Source: a virus. Taken from it: a stretch of DNA of 11,550 nt. The DNA is taken from UHGV virus genome UHGV-0196030; one strand, written 5' to 3'. The translations under genes and the position numbers were made by a program. Below are positions 718 through 11,550 of the stretch, piece by piece. Each line of letters opens with the position of its first letter. Positions within the stretch are counted from its first letter, which is position 1. The notes under the pieces are model-generated. The model made no database searches, had not been told where the DNA came from, and worked only from the letters and a program-made list of their open reading frames with translations.

Positions 718-957
718 CCTGCAAACAATTCTATTTCATCGTTAGCCCTTGTCCTGTAAGGTAATTGGCTTAACACGCCCGCTATTCATCCTGCCGAACG
801 CAACCGAACGCGCCGGATACATGAGCGGGGTTATCGAGTCGTTAGATCGAGGTATCCGGTTTTAAGCAAGACACCACTGACAGCAAAGGGCATAGAGGCC
901 GCCCAGCCGAAGGACAAGCCCTACAAACTCACCGATTCACTAACACCTGGCCTGTTC

Positions 958-2067
958 TTGCTGGTCCATCCCAATGGCAGCAAATACTGGCGATTCCGGT
1001 ACTGGATAGACAAGAAAGAGCGATTACAGGCCATCGGGGTATATCCGCTGATTAGCCTCAAGGAAGCCCGCAAACGCGCCACAGAGAGCCGTTTACTGAT
1101 AGCCCAGGGAATTGACCCAATGGAAGAAGCACGCAAGGAGAAAGCCATTGATGCGCTCAACATGGCGGCAAGTTTTAAGACCGTGGCGGAGGACTGGCTG
1201 ACTACTAGGGTGAGCGGTTGGTCAGAGTCCTACACGAAACAGGTCAGGACGGCGCTGAAAAATGACGTTTACCCCGTGCTGGGTAAGCGTTCAATCGTCG
1301 ATATAACCGCCCGTGATGTTCTGGCATTGCTTCAGAAGAAAGAGCGCACCGCGCCGGAGGCGGCCCATAAGTTACGCCAGCGTATCGGGGAGATCTTCAA
1401 ATTTGCCGTTATCACCGAACTGGTTAACCGGAATCCGGTTGCAGATCTGGATACGGCATTGAAAGCCAGACGCCCAGGCCATAACGCATGGATACAAATT
1501 AGTGAAATTCCGGCCTTCTACAAAGCCCTTGAGAGAGCCGGGAGCGTACAGATTCAGACGGCAATACGCTTGCTTATATTGACGGCATTAAGAACGGCAG
1601 AATTGCGAAAAATGCGGTGGGAATGGGTAGATCTGAGCACGGCAACAATCACCCTACCCGCTGAAGTCATGAAGGCCCGCCGACCGCACGTAGTCCCGTT
1701 ATCCCGGCAAGCGGTCGAGCTATTACAGGACCAGTTTACCCGCAGCGGGTACAGTGCTTTCGTCTTTCCGGGCCGATTCATGGATAAGCCATTGTCAGCA
1801 AGTGCCATCCTTAAAGCCCTGGAGCGTATCGGGTACAAGTCGATCGCCACTGGTCATGGTTGGCGGACCACCTTTTCAACGGCGCTTAATGAGTCTGGCA
1901 GATACTCACCAGACTGGATCGAAATCCAATTGGCCCACGTTCCGAAAGGTGTGCGCGGTGTATATAACCAGGCCGCCTACCTGAAGCAACGGCGGGTAAT
2001 GATGCAGGACTACGCGGACGCTATTGTTCTGATATTGGCTGGTGACGGTAATCCGCTGGAACCGTGA
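958..2067 (+). CDS. intZ: P4-family tyrosine integrase (site-specific recombinase); ORF shown from the first in-frame TTG, but N-terminal homology continues upstream to about 868
   Basis: N-terminal arm-binding-type sequence ...KDKPYKLTDSLTPGLFLLVHPNGSKYWRFRYWIDKKERLQAIGVYPLISLKEARKRATESRLL... and C-terminal catalytic region ...HGWRTTFSTALNESGRYSPDWIEIQLAHVPKGVRGVYNQAAYLKQRRVMMQDYADAI (H-x-x-R and catalytic Tyr as in P4 Int). Symbol given by locus analogy to K-12 CPZ-55, not by sequence identity check. Confidence 0.88.
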   Translation: MLVHPNGSKYWRFRYWIDKKERLQAIGVYPLISLKEARKRATESRLLIAQGIDPMEEARKEKAIDALNMAASFKTVAEDWLTTRVSGWSESYTKQVRTALKNDVYPVLGKRSIVDITARDVLALLQKKERTAPEAAHKLRQRIGEIFKFAVITELVNRNPVADLDTALKARRPGHNAWIQISEIPAFYKALERAGSVQIQTAIRLLILTALRTAELRKMRWEWVDLSTATITLPAEVMKARRPHVVPLSRQAVELLQDQFTRSGYSAFVFPGRFMDKPLSASAILKALERIGYKSIATGHGWRTTFSTALNESGRYSPDWIEIQLAHVPKGVRGVYNQAAYLKQRRVMMQDYADAIVLILAGDGNPLEP

Positions 2068-2817: not shown

Positions 2818-2840
2818 CTTTGCCTTAATTCCATGAATTC

Positions 2841-2964
2841 AGGTGGGTCAAAAGTTGCCGTTAAGGTGGGTCAAAAGTTGCCGAGTAAGAATTCTACTAT
2901 TAAGAATTCTAGGCGACGGGAGTTTTTTAGCCTCCCGGTCGGTCATAGAGAGTCGCCTAGAGTT
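2841..2964. repeat. Iteron-like repeat cluster: two identical 20-bp direct repeats, two TAAGAATTCT repeats and a nested palindrome
   Basis: AGGTGGGTCAAAAGTTGCCG at 2841..2860 and 2864..2883, identical, 23 bp centre to centre. TAAGAATTCT at 2886..2895 and 2901..2910. Inverted repeat CTAGGCGAC (2909..2917) / GTCGCCTAG (2952..2960) enclosing hairpin CGGGAG-n9-CTCCCG. Confidence 0.6.
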
Positions 2965-5111: not shown

Positions 5112-5507
5112 ATGACCAATATCGAAAGATTAGAACGCTGTGCCGATATTATGCGGCGCAGATGGATTTATGACCCTGAAGCGGGTTTATTGTTTAGCCG
5201 TGAAACAAAAGACGTTATCAAAGGCAGCATGACCAATAAAGGGCATTTGGTTGTAACGGTACATGAAGGTAAATTCAAAGTGACACTCACCTATCAGAAA
5301 GCCTGCTATGTATACACATACGGCGCTTATGACGAGACATTATATGAAGTGCACCACGTTAATTTGAACAAACAGGATAACCGCATCAAGAATATTCGCC
5401 TGATGCCGAAAGAAAAGCACCGCCGGATACATAAAAACGTCCGCAAACTTATTCGGCTGGGCCACACACAATGGCTTCAACCGCAATTAATTGAACAATC
5501 ACTATAA
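5112..5507 (+). CDS. HNH endonuclease (HNH_3-type), 131 aa
   Basis: Motif YEVHHVNLNKQDNRIKNIRLMPKEKHRRIH matches the H-H-x-N...N-R...N-(I/L)-R signature of phage HNH_3 nucleases. SD GAGG at 5100..5103, 8 nt before the ATG. Confidence 0.6.
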   Translation: MTNIERLERCADIMRRRWIYDPEAGLLFSRETKDVIKGSMTNKGHLVVTVHEGKFKVTLTYQKACYVYTYGAYDETLYEVHHVNLNKQDNRIKNIRLMPKEKHRRIHKNVRKLIRLGHTQWLQPQLIEQSL

Positions 5508-8120: not shown

Positions 8121-9966
8121 ATGAGTGGAAATCTTGGGACCATTTACTATGAGGTGGACGCCCGCACGGGTAAGCTACTGATGGCACAAGAAGAAGCGAA
8201 TCAGGCTTTTGATGCCATTGAGCGTGGCGCAAAACGTGCTGATAACGGCGTCAAAAAACTGAATACGCAGATGACCAAAACGTCTGCCGCAGTAAAATCA
8301 AATTTCTCATTTGCAATCAAAAACGCATCCTACCAGATAGCAGACCTTGCTACACAACTTCAGATGGGCGGTAATGCCATCCAGGTCTTTGCCGTTCAAG
8401 GGGCGCAGCTTGTCGCTGCATTTGGTACTGGCGGTGCGGTCATGGGTGCGGTCATGGCTATTGGCGGGGCAATTGCCAACAGCCTTACGGATAACATGGA
8501 TGACGCCACGGATAGAAAAATACATTGATGCGCTACTCCGCTACAGCAACGAGGTGCTAACAGCAGAAGAGCGTCAAACGGCGTTAAACGAGGCACTGAA
8601 TGCTGGGGCGTCTGCGGCAGCAATTGCCACTGGCGAAATGCTGATTAAACAGGAGCAGATCAAGCAAGAGAAGCTAAAAGGCAATGAGAACGCTGCGCTT
8701 GATATGGCGCTGGCTGAGGGCAAGTTAACGAAGGCGGATCACGATAGGCTTGTCCAGATGCGAGAAGAAACAAAGGAATTGGAGGAGAACAAACGCAAGG
8801 AAGAAGAGAACGCCAGGGAGAAAGAACGAGCAGCCAAACAGGCAGAAAGCGCGGCGAAACAGGCGGCGAAACAGGCGCAACGCGAACTTGAACAGCTTCA
8901 GAAACGCGGGCAAGGTGTAGCTGACAAGTACAACGTAGAGGGCGCAGCACAGCGTAAACTAAAAGAAGACCAGGAAGCGCTAAATGCAGCAATGGAAGCT
9001 GGCAAAATCAGCACAGAACAATATAACGCAGCGTGGGCCGGACTCCTGAGAACGGAGGCGCAACGCAAACAGCAAGCCGGATGGGATAATCTTGTCAGCC
9101 GGGAAGATAAGCTAAAAGGCCGTGTTGACCCAATCCAGCAGGTGATGAACGAATGGAATGTTCGCAAGCAAATGATGCTCGATTTAGGCGTCACTGAGGC
9201 AACCATGCGGCAAGCAGAGATCGACCACAAAGAACGAATTCTTAACCTTCAGTGGCAGCAATGGCAGGCGCAAAGCGATACTAACGCGCTTGTAGGTAAC
9301 ATGATTGATGGCCTCGCTTCCGGTGCTGGTAGCGCATTTACCGGACTGCTTAACGGATCTCAATCGTTCCAGGAATCACTTGCTAACATCGGAACGACCA
9401 TTATCAACCAGGTTGTTGGAAGCCTTGCGCAGATGGGGGCGGAATACGTTAAACAGCTTGTTATGGGTGAGGTTGCGCAGAAATCAGCCTCCGCATCAGC
9501 TACTGCAACGGCAGCGGCAACAGGCGCATCAATCGCATCATCAATGGCCCCAGCAGCAGCGGCGACAGCAACCGCGACAATGGGTACGGCCCCGATGGTG
9601 GCGATGTCTGCGATGTCGGCATTAATGACTGGCATTACAAGCCTATTTGGCGGACGTCGCTACAACGGCGGCGCGGTTAATGGCGGCAATATGTATCGAG
9701 TCGGTGAAAACAAAGTACCTGAACTATTCCAGACCAATAACGGACGGCAGTACATGATTCCGGGTGAGAATGGTCGCATCATTCCTGGTCGTGATATTGG
9801 TGGCGGTAACGTTAGCATAAACGCGCCTATAACCGTTTACCCACAAAACGGTTGGACCGAACAGGATAGCAAGGCATTGCAGCAGACGATTGAGAATACA
9901 GCGATGCGGTTGATGCAGAGAGAATCAACCAGGCCGGGCGGAATGCTCCAGGGTCGCCGCCGTTAA
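8121..9966 (+). pseudogene. Lambda gpH-like tail tape-measure gene, split by a frameshift near 8516..8528 into 8121..8528 and a second frame running to 9966
   Basis: N-terminal part (...YQIADLATQLQMGGNAIQVFAVQGAQLVAAFGTGGAVMGAVMAIGGAIANSL) resembles the lambda H region FTDVATQLAGGQSPWLILLQQGGQV. Downstream frame has coiled-coil KEEENAREKERAAKQAESAAKQAAKQAQRELEQLQKRG and a Gly/Ala/Thr-rich C-terminus ending GGMLQGRRR (lambda H ends GGLFSGGGR). The two frames are offset by +1, with an A5 run at 8516..8520 just before the frame-0 stop. No other tail genes are present. Confidence 0.6.
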
Positions 9967-10136
9967 CCAAATCCCACGCCAGGGGAACAGACTGGCGGAC
10001 CTTCAAAGACGGTCGCACACCGTGTTTAACATAATTTATTGTTTTTTGCTTGCTCTTATTATTGCAGCCGTTAGAGTTGGCGTGGCAGTTTTTCACCTGT
10101 TTCGCGTGTTGCTGTGTTTTTGGGGAAGAAAAACAA

Positions 10137-10232
10137 ATGAGAAGGCTTATATACCTGGTATTTATGCTATTTGCTATCGGGCAAGCCATAATTTTTATCA
10201 CAATGCTGATCTGTCTGATGCTCTTTGGTTAA
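10137..10232 (+). CDS. Small hydrophobic peptide, 31 aa (MRRLIYLVFMLFAIGQAIIFITMLICLMLFG): candidate small membrane protein or type I toxin-like peptide
   Basis: SD GGGGAAG (10122..10128) 8 nt before the ATG at 10137. Single predicted transmembrane helix after an N-terminal RR. The stop is followed within 10 nt by an intrinsic terminator. Confidence 0.4.
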   Translation: MRRLIYLVFMLFAIGQAIIFITMLICLMLFG

Positions 10233-10240
10233 CTCCACCA

Positions 10241-10260
10241 GGACCCGCGACGGGTTTTTA
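10241..10260 (+). terminator. Rho-independent terminator after the small hydrophobic ORF
   Basis: Stem ACCCG (10243..10247) / CGGGT (10251..10255), loop CGA, followed by TTTTT. Confidence 0.55.
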
Positions 10261-10431
10261 TACCATCATTATTAAATCTATTAATAATCATCAAACCATA
10301 ATTAGCACAACTTATAATCGAGCAAAAATCACACAACCTTGATAAGTTGAGCTAATGGCTATATGTTTTTCTGATGAAATCCTAATGGCGAAAACTTGCG
10401 ACGATACCGAAAAAACCGCGAAAATTGAAGT

Positions 10432-10541
10432 GTTCTTTCTTTTTTTGTTTTTTATTTTTTTATTTTCTCTTTTTCTTCTCTTTCCGGTTCTCTTCTTTTT
10501 CTGGTTTTGGTTTTTTCCTTTTTTATTTTTATTCTTTCTTC
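10432..10541. repeat. Polypyrimidine (T/C-rich) low-complexity tract of about 110 bp; polypurine on the minus strand
   Basis: GTTCTTTCTTTTTTTGTTTTTTATTTTTTTATTTTCTCTTTTTCTTCTCTTTCCGGTTCTCTTCTTTTTCTGGTTTTGGTTTTTTCCTTTTTTATTTTTATTCTTTCTTC; strongly pyrimidine-biased, with only scattered purines. Confidence 0.7.
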
Positions 10542-10687
10542 AGGGTTGTGCTAAAACACACCAAAACATTTTCGCCACAAAAGCGTTAATTTCATCCTGC
10601 CAGACCATTCACTTTCACCGGATACACAGCCGGATATATTCCCACTAACACCCCACCACCCAGCGCCACGCCTGATAACTACCGTAT

Positions 10688-10720
10688 TCAGGAAGGAAAT
10701 GCGAGTGATTTCACCGTCAC
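10688..10720. repeat. Right junction: the genuine eutA 3' end, partner of the imperfect repeat at 685..717 (attR-like)
   Basis: TCAGGAAGGAAATGCGAGTGATTTCACCGTCAC includes the eutA stop codon (TCA on +, TGA on minus). See the left-junction repeat. Confidence 0.45.
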
Positions 10721-11550
10721 CGGCACAACCGATCCGCCAAAAAGAGGCGTACCAATGTCGATATAGTCCCCCGCGCGGACAATCACTTCGTCAATGACTG
10801 CCAACGGGAGTTGTTGTAGCTGTGGGCGCAACAACATGCCCAGAGCTTTACCAAAGTCCTGCCCGGCCACCACCAGCAGGGGATGCGGATTCGGAAAACG
10901 CGCGACGAAATCGACCAGCGCGTTGATGACCGTCAGTACCGCGGCGTAACGCACAGGCAGCGAGGCGGGAAGCGCCAGCACGTACGCGTCAGTTTTGGGA
11001 TCAAGATCCAGCTGAAGCAGCGCCTGTTGCCAGGCACTCACCAGATCCGTTTCATCAATCGGGATCGCCACCGGCAAATTGCGCAGCGGCAGTTGTACGC
11101 CCTCCAGCCAGATTGTGCTGCCAGAGAGCGAAAGGGTATGTGCACCCGCGCCAATCACCGTGGCGCGTACGGTTTGCGCCGGAAACTGCACATTCATCTC
11201 ACGCAGGCGCGGATGGTCATGCAGCGCCGTTGCCAGAAGTGGGCCAATATCGGCAAAACAGAACGGGTCGGCGGGCTGGTGGCGATAACATTCGCCCACG
11301 CCTCCAGAAAGCGTAATGATTTCGGGCGTAACACCTGCGGGCAGCAAACCGGTTTGCATCAATGCCTGCGCGAGCGGCGAAAGCGTTCCGTCAATCACTT
11401 CGACAATCAGCGCCGCCATCCGCCGGGTAACCTGCACCAGCTGCGCGCCGGTCAGCGAACGGGCGTCAGTGCCTGCACCGAAGCACTCATCCACAATCAT
11501 CTGCCCCGGTTTATGAGCGTAAACCACGCGCCCGTGGCTGTCGGTTTCCA
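10688..11550 (-). CDS. eutA: Ethanolamine utilisation protein EutA (ethanolamine ammonia-lyase reactivase), C-terminal ~287 codons; gene continues past the window end
   Basis: Minus-strand frame open from the window end to the stop at 10688..10690, ending ...GTPLFGGSVVPVTVKSLAFPS. Lies directly upstream of eutB in operon orientation, as in the eut operon order eutA then eutB. Confidence 0.85.
   Translation of the reverse strand, partial: ETDSHGRVVYAHKPGQMIVDECFGAGTDARSLTGAQLVQVTRRMAALIVEVIDGTLSPLAQALMQTGLLPAGVTPEIITLSGGVGECYRHQPADPFCFADIGPLLATALHDHPRLREMNVQFPAQTVRATVIGAGAHTLSLSGSTIWLEGVQLPLRNLPVAIPIDETDLVSAWQQALLQLDLDPKTDAYVLALPASLPVRYAAVLTVINALVDFVARFPNPHPLLVVAGQDFGKALGMLLRPQLQQLPLAVIDEVIVRAGDYIDIGTPLFGGSVVPVTVKSLAFPS

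What the first reader, a model, noticed from the sequence alone, without database searches (positions are those of the whole stretch)
10432..10541. About 110-bp polypyrimidine/polypurine tract next to the right junction
The + strand from 10432 to 10541 is almost entirely T and C. This is very unusual for enterobacterial DNA. Such tracts can form triplex (H-DNA) structures, stall replication or transcription, and behave as slippage-prone sequence. It lies 150 bp from the eutA stop, within the element's right arm, where the eut transcript reading out of eutA would traverse it as a purine-rich RNA. The ORF at 10355..10648 that runs through it (Phe/Leu low-complexity) is probably an artefact.
Basis: seen in the sequence. 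Interest (0 to 1): 0.45.

Follow-up and report, generated by a model that had tools for sequence, protein, structure and literature searches.

The report
Conserved T-rich tract at prophage edge
A 110-base stretch made almost only of T and C is a real, conserved, non-coding piece of a CPZ-55-type mobile element inserted in the E. coli ethanolamine (eut) operon; it has the symmetry needed to form triple-stranded DNA, but what it does is still an inference.

Summary
Window 10432-10541 is 89% pyrimidine and 73% T on the + strand, far beyond chance.

It lies inside a roughly 10-kb CPZ-55-family integrative element, between attL 685-692 and attR 10688-10695 (core TCAGGAAG). The tract ends 147 bp from the eutA stop codon.

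The tract is not an accident of one strain. The same sequence sits at the same place in about 150 of 5,426 complete E. coli genomes. It is also in a Shigella flexneri genome, in gut and food metagenomes, and as a remnant on EAF/IncF plasmids.

It is non-coding: indels of 2, 4, 5, 7 and 10 nt break every reading frame. It has about 3% substitutions against 8-30% in its flanks, so it is under constraint. Length varies only modestly (94-109 nt, 12 alleles), and 114 genomes of one class aligned over the same 131-nt span, so it is not hypervariable.

Its centre is a perfect 15+15-nt pyrimidine mirror repeat with a 5-nt spacer, which is an H-DNA motif. The arms changed in concert in three allele classes, which is suggestive (p about 0.04).

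My best reading (confidence about 0.35) is a strand-asymmetric transcription insulator between the eut operon and the element. Protein-binding, RNA-level and neutral explanations remain open. Interest is moderate.

The parts
10432..10541 (+). Polypyrimidine (+ strand) / polypurine (- strand) tract, 110 nt, 89% pyrimidine, 73% T.
10440..10467 (+). Left outer part of the tract. This is where most length polymorphism lies: T-run changes, a 7-bp GTTTTTT indel and a 15-nt deletion in one metagenome allele.
10468..10482 (+). Left arm of the perfect mirror repeat, TCTTTTTCTTCTCTT.
10483..10487 (+). Spacer TCCGG between the mirror arms. It contains the CCGG at the centre of the whole tract.
10488..10502 (+). 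Right arm of the mirror repeat, TTCTCTTCTTTTTCT.
10503..10541 (+). Right outer part of the tract, GGTTTTGGTTTTTTCCTTTTTTATTTTTATTCTTTCTTC. It has no substitutions between allele classes. Only single T/C changes were seen, in two strains.
10392..10431 (+). Left flank of the conserved module. It carries conserved promoter-like hexamers, TTGCGA (10396-10401), an 18-nt spacer and GAAAAT (10420-10425). These would start + strand RNA at about the tract start. This is a weak consensus match only.
10542..10600 (+). Right flank of the module. It is conserved among tract-bearing elements (7-23% substitutions) and absent from tract-less CPZ-55 relatives.
10601..10687 (+). 87-bp att arm shared with tract-less CPZ-55-type elements. 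It holds two direct CCGGATAY repeats (10618-10625, 10630-10637), probably integrase arm-type sites.
10688..10695 (+). attR core TCAGGAAG. TCA is the reverse complement of the eutA stop codon.
   Evidence: published for CPZ-55 in PMC6379469.
685..692 (+). attL core TCAGGAAG.
817..2067 (+). P4-type tyrosine integrase with Arm-DNA-bind_3, Phage_int_M and Phage_integrase domains. It is 94% identical to IntZ of a tract-less element.
10243..10261 (+). Hairpin ACCCG-cga-CGGGT followed by TTTTT. It is a likely intrinsic terminator of the last cargo gene, about 170 bp upstream of the tract. The stem sequence differs between alleles while pairing is kept.
   Evidence: The consensus scan did not flag it.
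10313..10318 (+). TATAAT hexamer in a conserved AT-rich non-coding block upstream of the tract. Seven of eight aligned alleles have it; one has TACAAT. It is a candidate -10 box for a + strand transcript through the tract.
10688..11550 (-). 3' part of eutA (ethanolamine ammonia-lyase reactivase), running off the window.

Best explanation
What is shown: the tract is a conserved, non-coding cis-element of a subset (about one third) of CPZ-55-family integrative elements. These elements insert at the eutA stop codon. The tract always sits in the same place, between the last cargo terminator and the 87-bp integrase arm of the att site.

What is inferred: it most likely works as a strand-asymmetric transcription insulator at the host-element boundary.

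(i) RNA polymerase reading out of eutA uses the pyrimidine strand as template, so the purine-rich strand is the non-template strand. This is the orientation in which homopurine/homopyrimidine H-motifs impede elongation, through triplex or R-loop formation in the negatively supercoiled wake. The central 15+15-nt mirror repeat supplies the triplex-forming core.

(ii) Any + strand transcript leaving the element is U/C-rich, G-poor, unstructured and untranslated across the tract. That is a good entry and pause region for Rho, before the transcript becomes antisense to eutA.
For: - The tract is non-random.
- Position: it is found in 150 of 5,426 E. coli genomes, 144 on chromosomes. Every chromosomal copy I fetched lies beside eutA, or beside an IS next to eutA. 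441 genomes carry the CPZ-55-type arm.
- Constraint: window allele versus class B shows 3/105 substitutions in the tract against 34/184 in the flanks, Fisher p = 7e-5.
- Non-coding: no conserved frame on either strand; no Pfam or NCBIfam hit; no Rfam family.
- H-motif: perfect 15-nt all-pyrimidine mirror arms with a 5-nt spacer. Against composition-preserving and run-preserving shuffles, p = 0.007-0.035.
- Concerted arm changes: outer T-runs are 5/5 in class A, 4/4 in class B and 3/3 in class C, with inner runs +1 in both arms of class C. Simulated chance of keeping the mirror is about 0.2 per transition, about 0.04 combined.
- Orientation: eutA is on the - strand, so eut read-through has the purine strand as non-template. 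The H-DNA review states that this is the blocking orientation (PMC11667243).
- Both RNAs are unstructured across the tract (z = -0.26 and -1.35). C/G is 2.25, with 18 YC dinucleotides.
- The integrase arm is shared with tract-less elements, and the integrases do not split by tract presence (94%, 94% and 92% identity). So the tract is not a required part of the recombination site.
Against: - There are no experimental data on structure or transcription.
- Fifteen-nt arms with 4 C per arm are marginal for H-DNA at neutral pH and physiological supercoiling (general knowledge of H-DNA energetics).
- The covariation support is only suggestive. The mirror is broken in the Shigella flexneri / ECMA0423 allele and in one metagenome allele.
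- An insulator that depends on composition does not explain why the right outer 39 nt are sequence-invariant.
- C content is only 16%, which is low for a classical rut site.
- Tract-bearing elements already have an intrinsic terminator about 170-260 bp upstream, so outward cargo transcripts may never reach the tract.
- Two thirds of CPZ-55-type elements lack the tract, so the function is dispensable.
Confidence: 0.35

Rival explanations
1. RNA-level element. The tract is the body or leader of a + strand transcript started at the conserved TATAAT (10313-10318) or at TTGCGA-18-GAAAAT (10396-10425). The long U/C-rich unstructured RNA would recruit Rho, Hfq or S1. It would control read-through across the att site, into int when the element is circular or antisense to eutA when it is integrated.
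For: - Promoter-like hexamers upstream are conserved while the sequence between them varies.
- The RNA is unstructured.
- It is G-poor and rich in YC dinucleotides.
- No ORF is conserved.
- No intrinsic terminator was predicted downstream.
Against: - The promoters are weak consensus matches, and counts in the region do not exceed shuffles.
- There is no Rfam hit.
- There is no specific complementary partner in the element: shuffled tracts pair equally well with the purine-rich region at about 8771.
- Mirror symmetry has no role in this model.
- C content of 16% is low for a rut site.
Confidence: 0.2
2. Architectural protein-binding DNA. The tract would be an accessory arm of the att site, or a nucleation site for a shape-reading minor-groove protein such as an H-NS- or HU/IHF-like host factor or an element-encoded recombination directionality factor. 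A two-fold symmetric minor-groove reader sees a mirror repeat as a palindrome, which would explain both the symmetry and the exact sequence conservation.
For: - Sequence-level invariance of 10503-10541.
- Constant distance of 60 bp from the integrase arm.
- Positional symmetry of the interruptions around the central CCGG (read directly from the sequence).
- Narrow-groove T-runs.
Against: - No IHF consensus lies in 10392-10700.
- There are no CCGGATAY arm sites in the tract.
- Tract-less elements with equally similar integrases exist.
- Tract-bearing elements have different backbones and cargo, so no co-varying element protein is evident.
- Strict strand asymmetry over 110 bp is not required by a duplex-binding protein.
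Confidence: 0.2
3. Neutral low-complexity DNA. The tract would be a slippage-generated T-rich filler that hitch-hikes with the att arm and looks conserved only because it spread recently.
For: - It is dispensable: about two thirds of CPZ-55-type elements lack it.
- IS1 inserts in it without obvious consequence.
- The mirror is broken in some alleles.
- The left third varies by T-run slippage.
Against: - Substitutions are 5-10 times rarer than in the immediately adjacent flanks of the same module (Fisher p = 7e-5).
- A recombination patch would have to coincide exactly with the tract in three allele classes.
- No length drift is seen across the 114 class-B genomes that align over most of the 131-nt query.
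Confidence: 0.17
4. It encodes a small protein: a Phe/Leu-rich membrane peptide on the + strand, or a Lys/Glu/Arg-rich peptide on the - strand. RefSeq annotates the latter (47-76 aa) in some genomes.
For: ORFs exist because T/C-only DNA has no stop codons. PGAP calls a - strand ORF in LH13-b, TOK-001, TBE6, TST3 and LR-28.
Against: - Indels of 2, 4, 5, 7 and 10 nt between alleles shift the frames.
- The window has an in-frame stop in the - strand ORF.
- The two annotated peptides that were translated (LH13-b, TOK-001) are in different frames.
- There is no conserved start codon or Shine-Dalgarno sequence.
- There is no family hit.
Confidence: 0.03
5. Contingency (phase-variation) locus, or a replication origin / DNA unwinding element.
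For: Many T-runs; AT-rich and easily melted; a DnaA-box-like 8/9 match at 10547-10555 next to the tract.
Against: - T-runs are at most 7 nt, and class-B hits show one constant 131-nt span.
- No gene or strong promoter is placed to be switched.
- The DnaA-box match is within chance (19 found, 22.5 expected) and is not conserved in other alleles.
- No replication initiator or iterons were found in the element.
Confidence: 0.05

Closest known systems
H-DNA motifs (homopurine/homopyrimidine mirror repeats), for example the (GA)n and (GAA)n tracts studied on E. coli plasmids, and the 'transcriptional diode' effect.
   Same: Strand-pure pyrimidine arms, perfect mirror symmetry and a short spacer. 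The orientation is one in which eut transcription has the purine strand as non-template, which is the blocking orientation described in PMC11667243.
   Different: This is a natural, conserved bacterial sequence rather than an engineered or eukaryotic repeat. The arms are only 15 nt. The sequence is T-rich rather than GA/GAA. The rest of the 110-nt tract is interrupted by 12 purines. No structural evidence exists.
Rho utilisation (rut) regions of Rho-dependent terminators.
   Same: The + strand RNA is about 80-110 nt, unstructured, untranslated and G-poor, with many YC dinucleotides. It sits at the edge of horizontally acquired DNA.
   Different: It is U-rich (73%) rather than C-rich (16% C). 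Rho dependence is untested. An intrinsic terminator already lies upstream.
G/C-rich intrastrand triplex motifs abundant in enterobacterial genomes (ITxF database, Holder et al. 2015, PMC4666352).
   Same: Conserved triplex-capable non-coding motifs in E. coli, associated with rearrangement-prone loci.
   Different: Those are short, G/C-rich, multi-copy intrastrand motifs. This one is single-copy, 110 nt, T-rich and tied to one mobile-element family.
CPZ-55 cryptic prophage of E. coli K-12 (intZ-yffS, inserted between eutA and eutB).
   Same: Same insertion site and the same 8-bp duplication TCAGGAAG. The integrase is 94% identical and the 87-bp att arm is shared.
   Different: The tract-less CPZ-55-type element examined (ATCC 8739) has no tract and carries a cargo gene terminator 10 nt from the arm instead. 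A K-12 genome matched only from the eutA stop in the megablast.

Membership tests
H-DNA motif (non-B DNA definition) | Mirror repeat with arms of at least 10 nt and a spacer under 8 nt. | tested here: met
   15-nt arms at 10468-10482 and 10488-10502, spacer TCCGG.
H-DNA motif (non-B DNA definition) | Arms at least 90% purine or pyrimidine on one strand. | tested here: met
   Both arms are 100% T/C.
H-DNA motif (non-B DNA definition) | Mirror symmetry maintained in relatives. | tested here: inconclusive
   Perfect in allele classes A (15 nt), B and C (14 nt), with concerted changes. Broken in the Shigella/ECMA0423 allele and in L138. Simulated chance of retention is about 0.04 combined.
H-DNA motif (non-B DNA definition) | Supercoil-dependent triplex shown by nuclease or chemical probing. 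| not testable with these tools
   Needs S1/P1, KMnO4/DEPC probing or 2D gels.
Rho-dependent terminator (rut region) | C-rich, G-poor RNA of about 70-80 nt. | tested here: inconclusive
   C/G = 2.25 and 18 YC dinucleotides, but only 16% C and 73% U.
Rho-dependent terminator (rut region) | Unstructured and untranslated RNA. | tested here: met
   Fold z-score -0.26; no conserved ORF.
Rho-dependent terminator (rut region) | Termination abolished by bicyclomycin or rho mutants. | not testable with these tools
   Experimental test.
Intrinsic (Rho-independent) terminator | G+C-rich hairpin immediately followed by a U-run. | tested here: not met
   No terminator-like site in 9900-10800 or in the homologous O157 locus. 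No stable hairpin abuts the tract.
Protein-coding gene | Reading frame and start codon conserved among relatives; family match. | tested here: not met
   Frame-shifting indels, a stop in the window's - strand frame and different start codons. No Pfam or NCBIfam hit.
Known structured RNA family (Rfam 15) | Match at or above the gathering score. | tested here: not met
   0 matches at gathering score. Only E > 1 noise in 10200-10750.
Integrase arm of attP (P4-type integrase) | Contains the repeated arm-type motif and is present in all elements that use this integrase. | tested here: not met
   CCGGATAY sites lie at 10618, 10630, 813 and 852-859, not in the tract. The tract-less element shares the arm, and its integrase is 94% identical.
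Simple-sequence contingency locus | Frequent length change among close relatives. | tested here: not met
   114 of 115 class-B genomes align over at least 80% of the 131-nt query and every listed full-length hit spans 131 nt. Variation in the fetched variants is 1-2 T/C substitutions.
DnaA-box plus unwinding element (origin) | Conserved DnaA box adjacent to the AT-rich tract. | tested here: not met
   The 8/9 match at 10547-10555 is within chance and is mutated in other alleles.

The most novel reading that the evidence does not exclude
The tract is a naturally selected triplex / 'H-loop' transcriptional diode. A mobile element living inside an operon would carry a mirror-symmetric polypurine/polypyrimidine tract that forms H-DNA or an R-loop when host eut transcription runs into it. 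This would shield the element and its att site from operon read-through. It would be the first case in bacteria of a functional H-DNA element supported by arm covariation.
Probability: 0.15. Interest if true: 0.75.

Novelty: new member of a known kind. Interest (0 to 1): 0.45.

Why it matters
Long polypurine/polypyrimidine mirror tracts are rare in E. coli. Their biology has been studied almost entirely with engineered or eukaryotic repeats.

Here a natural tract is conserved far better than its flanks, in about 3% of E. coli genomes. It lies at a defined position between a host operon and an integrated element, and there are hints that its mirror symmetry is maintained.

If it does block or terminate transcription in an orientation-dependent way, it would be a simple, testable example of non-B DNA used as a genetic insulator by a mobile element. 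It would also bear on how strongly CPZ-55-type insertions silence eutBCLKR.

If it does nothing, it is still a useful marker of one sub-lineage of the CPZ-55 family and of the fragment that moved onto EAF plasmids.

Tried and rejected
- Coding on either strand: rejected. Indels shift the frames, the window has a stop in the - strand frame, start codons are inconsistent, and there is no family hit.
- Known RNA family: none.
- Intrinsic terminator at the tract: none.
- Positional equivalence to the terminator of tract-less elements: I considered this first, then weakened it. Tract-bearing elements have their own terminator 170-260 bp upstream.
- IHF site: none within 10392-10700.
- DnaA box / DnaA-trio origin idea: the match is at chance level and not conserved.
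- Specific antisense target of the tract RNA within the element: shuffled tracts pair as well.
- Link to a distinct integrase lineage: none.
- Retrovirus-like polypurine primer tract: there is no reverse transcriptase. The 'Retrotrans_gag' hit is below the cut-off.
- Phage collection and IMG/VR: no copies.
- First genome contigs pattern: nothing. The second, an 18-mer, gave mostly chance hits in unrelated phyla plus two true copies, Shigella flexneri SFBU1023 and E. coli ECMA0423.
- The small plasmid CP088517 matched only because it is several kb of pure T/C, which is probably an assembly artefact.
- My first back-of-envelope estimate for the arm covariation (p about 0.002) did not hold. Simulation gave about 0.2 per transition.

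Full report
**1. The observation**

Window 10432-10541 reads GTTCTTTCTTTTTTTGTTTTTTATTTTTTTATTTTCTCTTTTTCTTCTCTTTCCGGTTCTCTTCTTTTTCTGGTTTTGGTTTTTTCCTTTTTTATTTTTATTCTTTCTTC. That is 80 T, 18 C, 8 G and 4 A, so 89% pyrimidine.

With a score of +1 for a pyrimidine and -3 for a purine, the best segment in the whole window is 10433-10541, with score 65. In 200 shuffles the mean maximum was 16 and the largest 36. The binomial tail is about 3e-18. About 115 kb of other E. coli loci contain nothing comparable.

**2. Context**

The window is nearly identical to E. coli MB19 (NZ_CP073981). The exception is a 527-bp deletion in a tape-measure-like gene.

The layout is as follows:
- eutB on the - strand, with its start codon at 671-673.
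- attL core TCAGGAAG at 685-692.
- A P4-type integrase at 817-2067, with an arm-binding domain.
- An HNH endonuclease, a small-terminase-like protein and a tape-measure-like protein.
- A short cargo region.
- The tract.
- An 87-bp arm at 10601-10687.
- attR core at 10688-10695, which overlaps the eutA stop codon.
- eutA on the - strand.

The empty site in an ST131 genome confirms the 8-bp duplication. It matches the published description of CPZ-55 (PMC6379469).

CCGGATAY occurs five times in the window against 0.43 expected. Four copies flank the att core, at 813, 852-859, 10618 and 10630. These are probably integrase arm sites. None lies in the tract.

**3. Distribution**

The module 10392-10600 is found in 150 of 5,426 complete E. 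coli genomes, 144 on chromosomes and 6 on plasmids. 441 genomes carry the CPZ-55-type arm next to eutA, so about one third of the family has the tract.

Every chromosomal copy I fetched lies at the same place beside eutA. The cargo upstream differs from copy to copy.

The commonest class, B, with about 115 genomes, carries a decarboxylase pseudogene, gadC, murI and IS1 just upstream. The same block, ending exactly at the att core, sits on EAF/IncF plasmids such as pMAR2, next to a truncated umuC.

Copies also occur in Shigella flexneri SFBU1023, in E. coli ECMA0423 and in 16 metagenome contigs. None was found in the phage collection or in IMG/VR.

A tract-less relative, ATCC 8739, shares only 10601-10687. 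It has a cargo-gene terminator 10 nt before that arm.

The integrases of two tract-bearing classes and the tract-less element are 92-94% identical to each other, with no grouping by tract presence.

**4. Variation**

Thirty-two copies gave 12 alleles, 94 to 109 nt long. The differences are T-run indels, a 7-bp indel and a few substitutions. Most lie in the left outer part, 10440-10467.

The right outer part, 10503-10541, has no substitutions between allele classes. Within class B, 114 of 115 genomes align over at least 80% of the 131-nt query, and every listed full-length hit spans exactly 131 nt. The fetched variants differ by one or two T/C transitions.

Window allele versus class B shows 3/105 substitutions in the tract. 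The flanks show 12/40 (left), 11/57 (right) and 11/87 (arm), giving Fisher p = 7e-5. The tract is therefore constrained in sequence, not only in composition, and it is not hypervariable.

IS1 has inserted at one point in the tract in EC931 and in a metagenome contig.

**5. Not coding, not a known RNA**

The + strand ORF 10355..10648 and the - strand ORFs that RefSeq calls in a few genomes are by-products of stop-free T/C sequence. Allele length differences of 2, 4, 5, 7 and 10 nt change the frame. The window has a stop in the - strand frame. The two annotated peptides that I translated (LH13-b, TOK-001) are in different frames. Start codons differ between alleles. No Pfam or NCBIfam family matches.

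Rfam gives nothing. Both RNA strands fold no better than shuffles.

**6. Internal anatomy**

The tract is centred on CCGG (10484-10487). It holds a perfect mirror repeat: TCTTTTTCTTCTCTT (10468-10482), spacer TCCGG, then TTCTCTTCTTTTTCT (10488-10502). This satisfies the usual H-DNA motif definition.

Given the low-complexity composition, such a repeat is only moderately unlikely. Mononucleotide shuffles give p = 0.026 by arm length and 0.007 by information. Run-preserving shuffles give 0.035 and 0.015.

The outer parts are also roughly mirror-symmetric in where the T-runs are interrupted. Interruptions lie at about 24, 32, 39/40 and 46/47 nt on either side of the centre, read directly from the sequence. 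However, the left side varies while the right does not, so only the core looks maintained.

Across alleles the arms change together. The outer T-runs are 5/5 in class A, 4/4 in class B and 3/3 in class C. In class C the inner runs also grow by one in both arms, so the repeat stays perfect with the same spacer.

Mirror repeats cannot be homogenised by recombination, so this hints at selection. Simulation of the observed numbers of T-run indels shows that a mirror of at least 14 nt survives by chance in about 20% of cases per transition, or about 0.04 combined.

Two rare alleles have lost the symmetry: Shigella/ECMA0423 and metagenome contig L138. A low-coverage contig, L140, has arms of 13 nt. 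I regard the covariation as suggestive only.

**7. Surroundings of the tract**

In most alleles a conserved AT-rich non-coding block of about 220 bp precedes the tract. It begins right after a terminator hairpin whose stem sequence differs between alleles while pairing is kept. It contains a TATAAT at window 10313-10318, present in seven of eight aligned alleles with TACAAT in the eighth.

Immediately before the tract, TTGCGA-18 nt-GAAAAT is conserved while the spacer varies. Both are candidate + strand promoters, but only by weak consensus. The scanning tool found no more promoter-like sites than in shuffles.

**8. Mechanism (inference)**

The features to explain are:
- strict strand asymmetry over 110 bp;
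- a maintained mirror core;
- sequence constraint;
- a fixed position between the cargo terminator and the att arm;
- dispensability;
- an element that lies inside an operon and opposes it.

The explanation I favour, at about 0.35, is a strand-asymmetric transcription insulator.

For RNA polymerase leaving eutA, the purine-rich strand is the non-template strand. This is the orientation in which H-motifs hinder elongation, through triplex or R-loop formation in the negatively supercoiled wake (PMC11667243).

In the other direction, the RNA is U/C-rich, G-poor, unstructured and untranslated, which suits Rho.

Several points count against this:
- The arms are short for H-DNA at neutral pH.
- C content is low for a rut site.
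- An upstream intrinsic terminator already exists.
- The invariant right outer part is not explained.

Rival explanations are:
- an RNA-level leader or sRNA (0.2);
- a binding platform for a shape-reading symmetric protein, for which a mirror repeat is effectively a palindrome in the minor groove (0.2);
- neutral hitch-hiking (0.17);
- coding, contingency locus or origin (0.08 or less together).

**9. Comparison with known things, and novelty**

By sequence definition the tract is an H-DNA motif. Whether it forms H-DNA cannot be tested here. It is not an intrinsic terminator, not a gene, not an Rfam family, not the integrase arm and not a contingency locus.

I found no paper that describes it. 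The searches returned CPZ-55 papers that deal only with the insertion site and prevalence, and H-DNA papers that deal with other sequences.

It is a new member of a known kind of sequence feature, in an unusual and experimentally convenient place. Interest is moderate, at 0.45. It would be considerably higher if an orientation-dependent barrier, or selection for mirror symmetry, were demonstrated.

Noticed in passing
window 10137-10232 (+), hairpin 10243-10261: A 31-aa, very hydrophobic small ORF (MRRLIYLVFMLFAIGQAIIFITMLICLMLFG) is followed directly by a hairpin plus T-run. RefSeq instead annotates the overlapping 106-aa ORF 10022..10342. Neither has a Pfam or NCBIfam match. It could be a small membrane or toxin-like peptide.
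   Followed up: partly
window 813-820 (+), 852-859 (-), 10618-10625 (+), 10630-10637 (+), 5423-5430 (+): CCGGATAY occurs 5 times against 0.43 expected. Four copies flank the att core and overlap the integrase start region. They are probably arm-type binding sites of the P4-type integrase.
   Followed up: partly
window about 8513-8516, compared with L001 9757-10283: The tape-measure-like gene carries a 527-bp deletion relative to strain MB19. This breaks the frame (ORFs 8121..8528 and 8347..9966), so the element in this window is decaying.
   Followed up: partly
L009 1913-5766; L003, L004 and L007 (plasmids): The commonest tract-bearing class of the element carries a decarboxylase pseudogene, a gadC-like antiporter, a murI-like racemase and IS1. 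The same block, with the tract, arm and att core, is on EAF/IncF plasmids (pMAR2, pPEC1003 and others), abutting a truncated umuC. That suggests integrase-mediated insertion into a plasmid secondary site, followed by IS-mediated loss of the rest.
   Followed up: partly
L158 about 1030-1800; L143: IS1 is inserted at the same position inside the tract in strain EC931 and in a metagenome contig, with a 9-bp duplication TCTCTTTTC.
   Followed up: partly
window 2838-2883: Two tandem copies of a 23-bp unit (TTCAGGTGGGTCAAAAGTTGCCG / TTAAGGTGGGTCAAAAGTTGCCG) lie downstream of the 207-aa ORF. They may be an operator or iteron-like site.
   Followed up: no
window 8700-9000 (best purine segment 8762-8826): A strongly purine- and A-rich stretch (AT skew up to 0.68) lies inside the tape-measure-like gene. 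It is coding low complexity and the only other strand-biased segment in the window.
   Followed up: no
L006 (CP088517.1, 6.5-kb plasmid pE16EC0790-1): More than 4 kb of this small plasmid record is pure T/C low-complexity sequence. This is most likely an assembly artefact, and it matched the tract only by composition.
   Followed up: partly
window 10246-10345 and the homologous blocks in L005, L010, L011, L012, L009 and L007: A conserved AT-rich non-coding block lies upstream of the tract, with a TATAAT at 10313-10318 in seven of eight alleles (TACAAT in the eighth). It is preceded by a terminator whose stem changes by compensatory substitutions between alleles. The segment between this block and the tract has been swapped in the window/O178 lineage.
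   Followed up: partly
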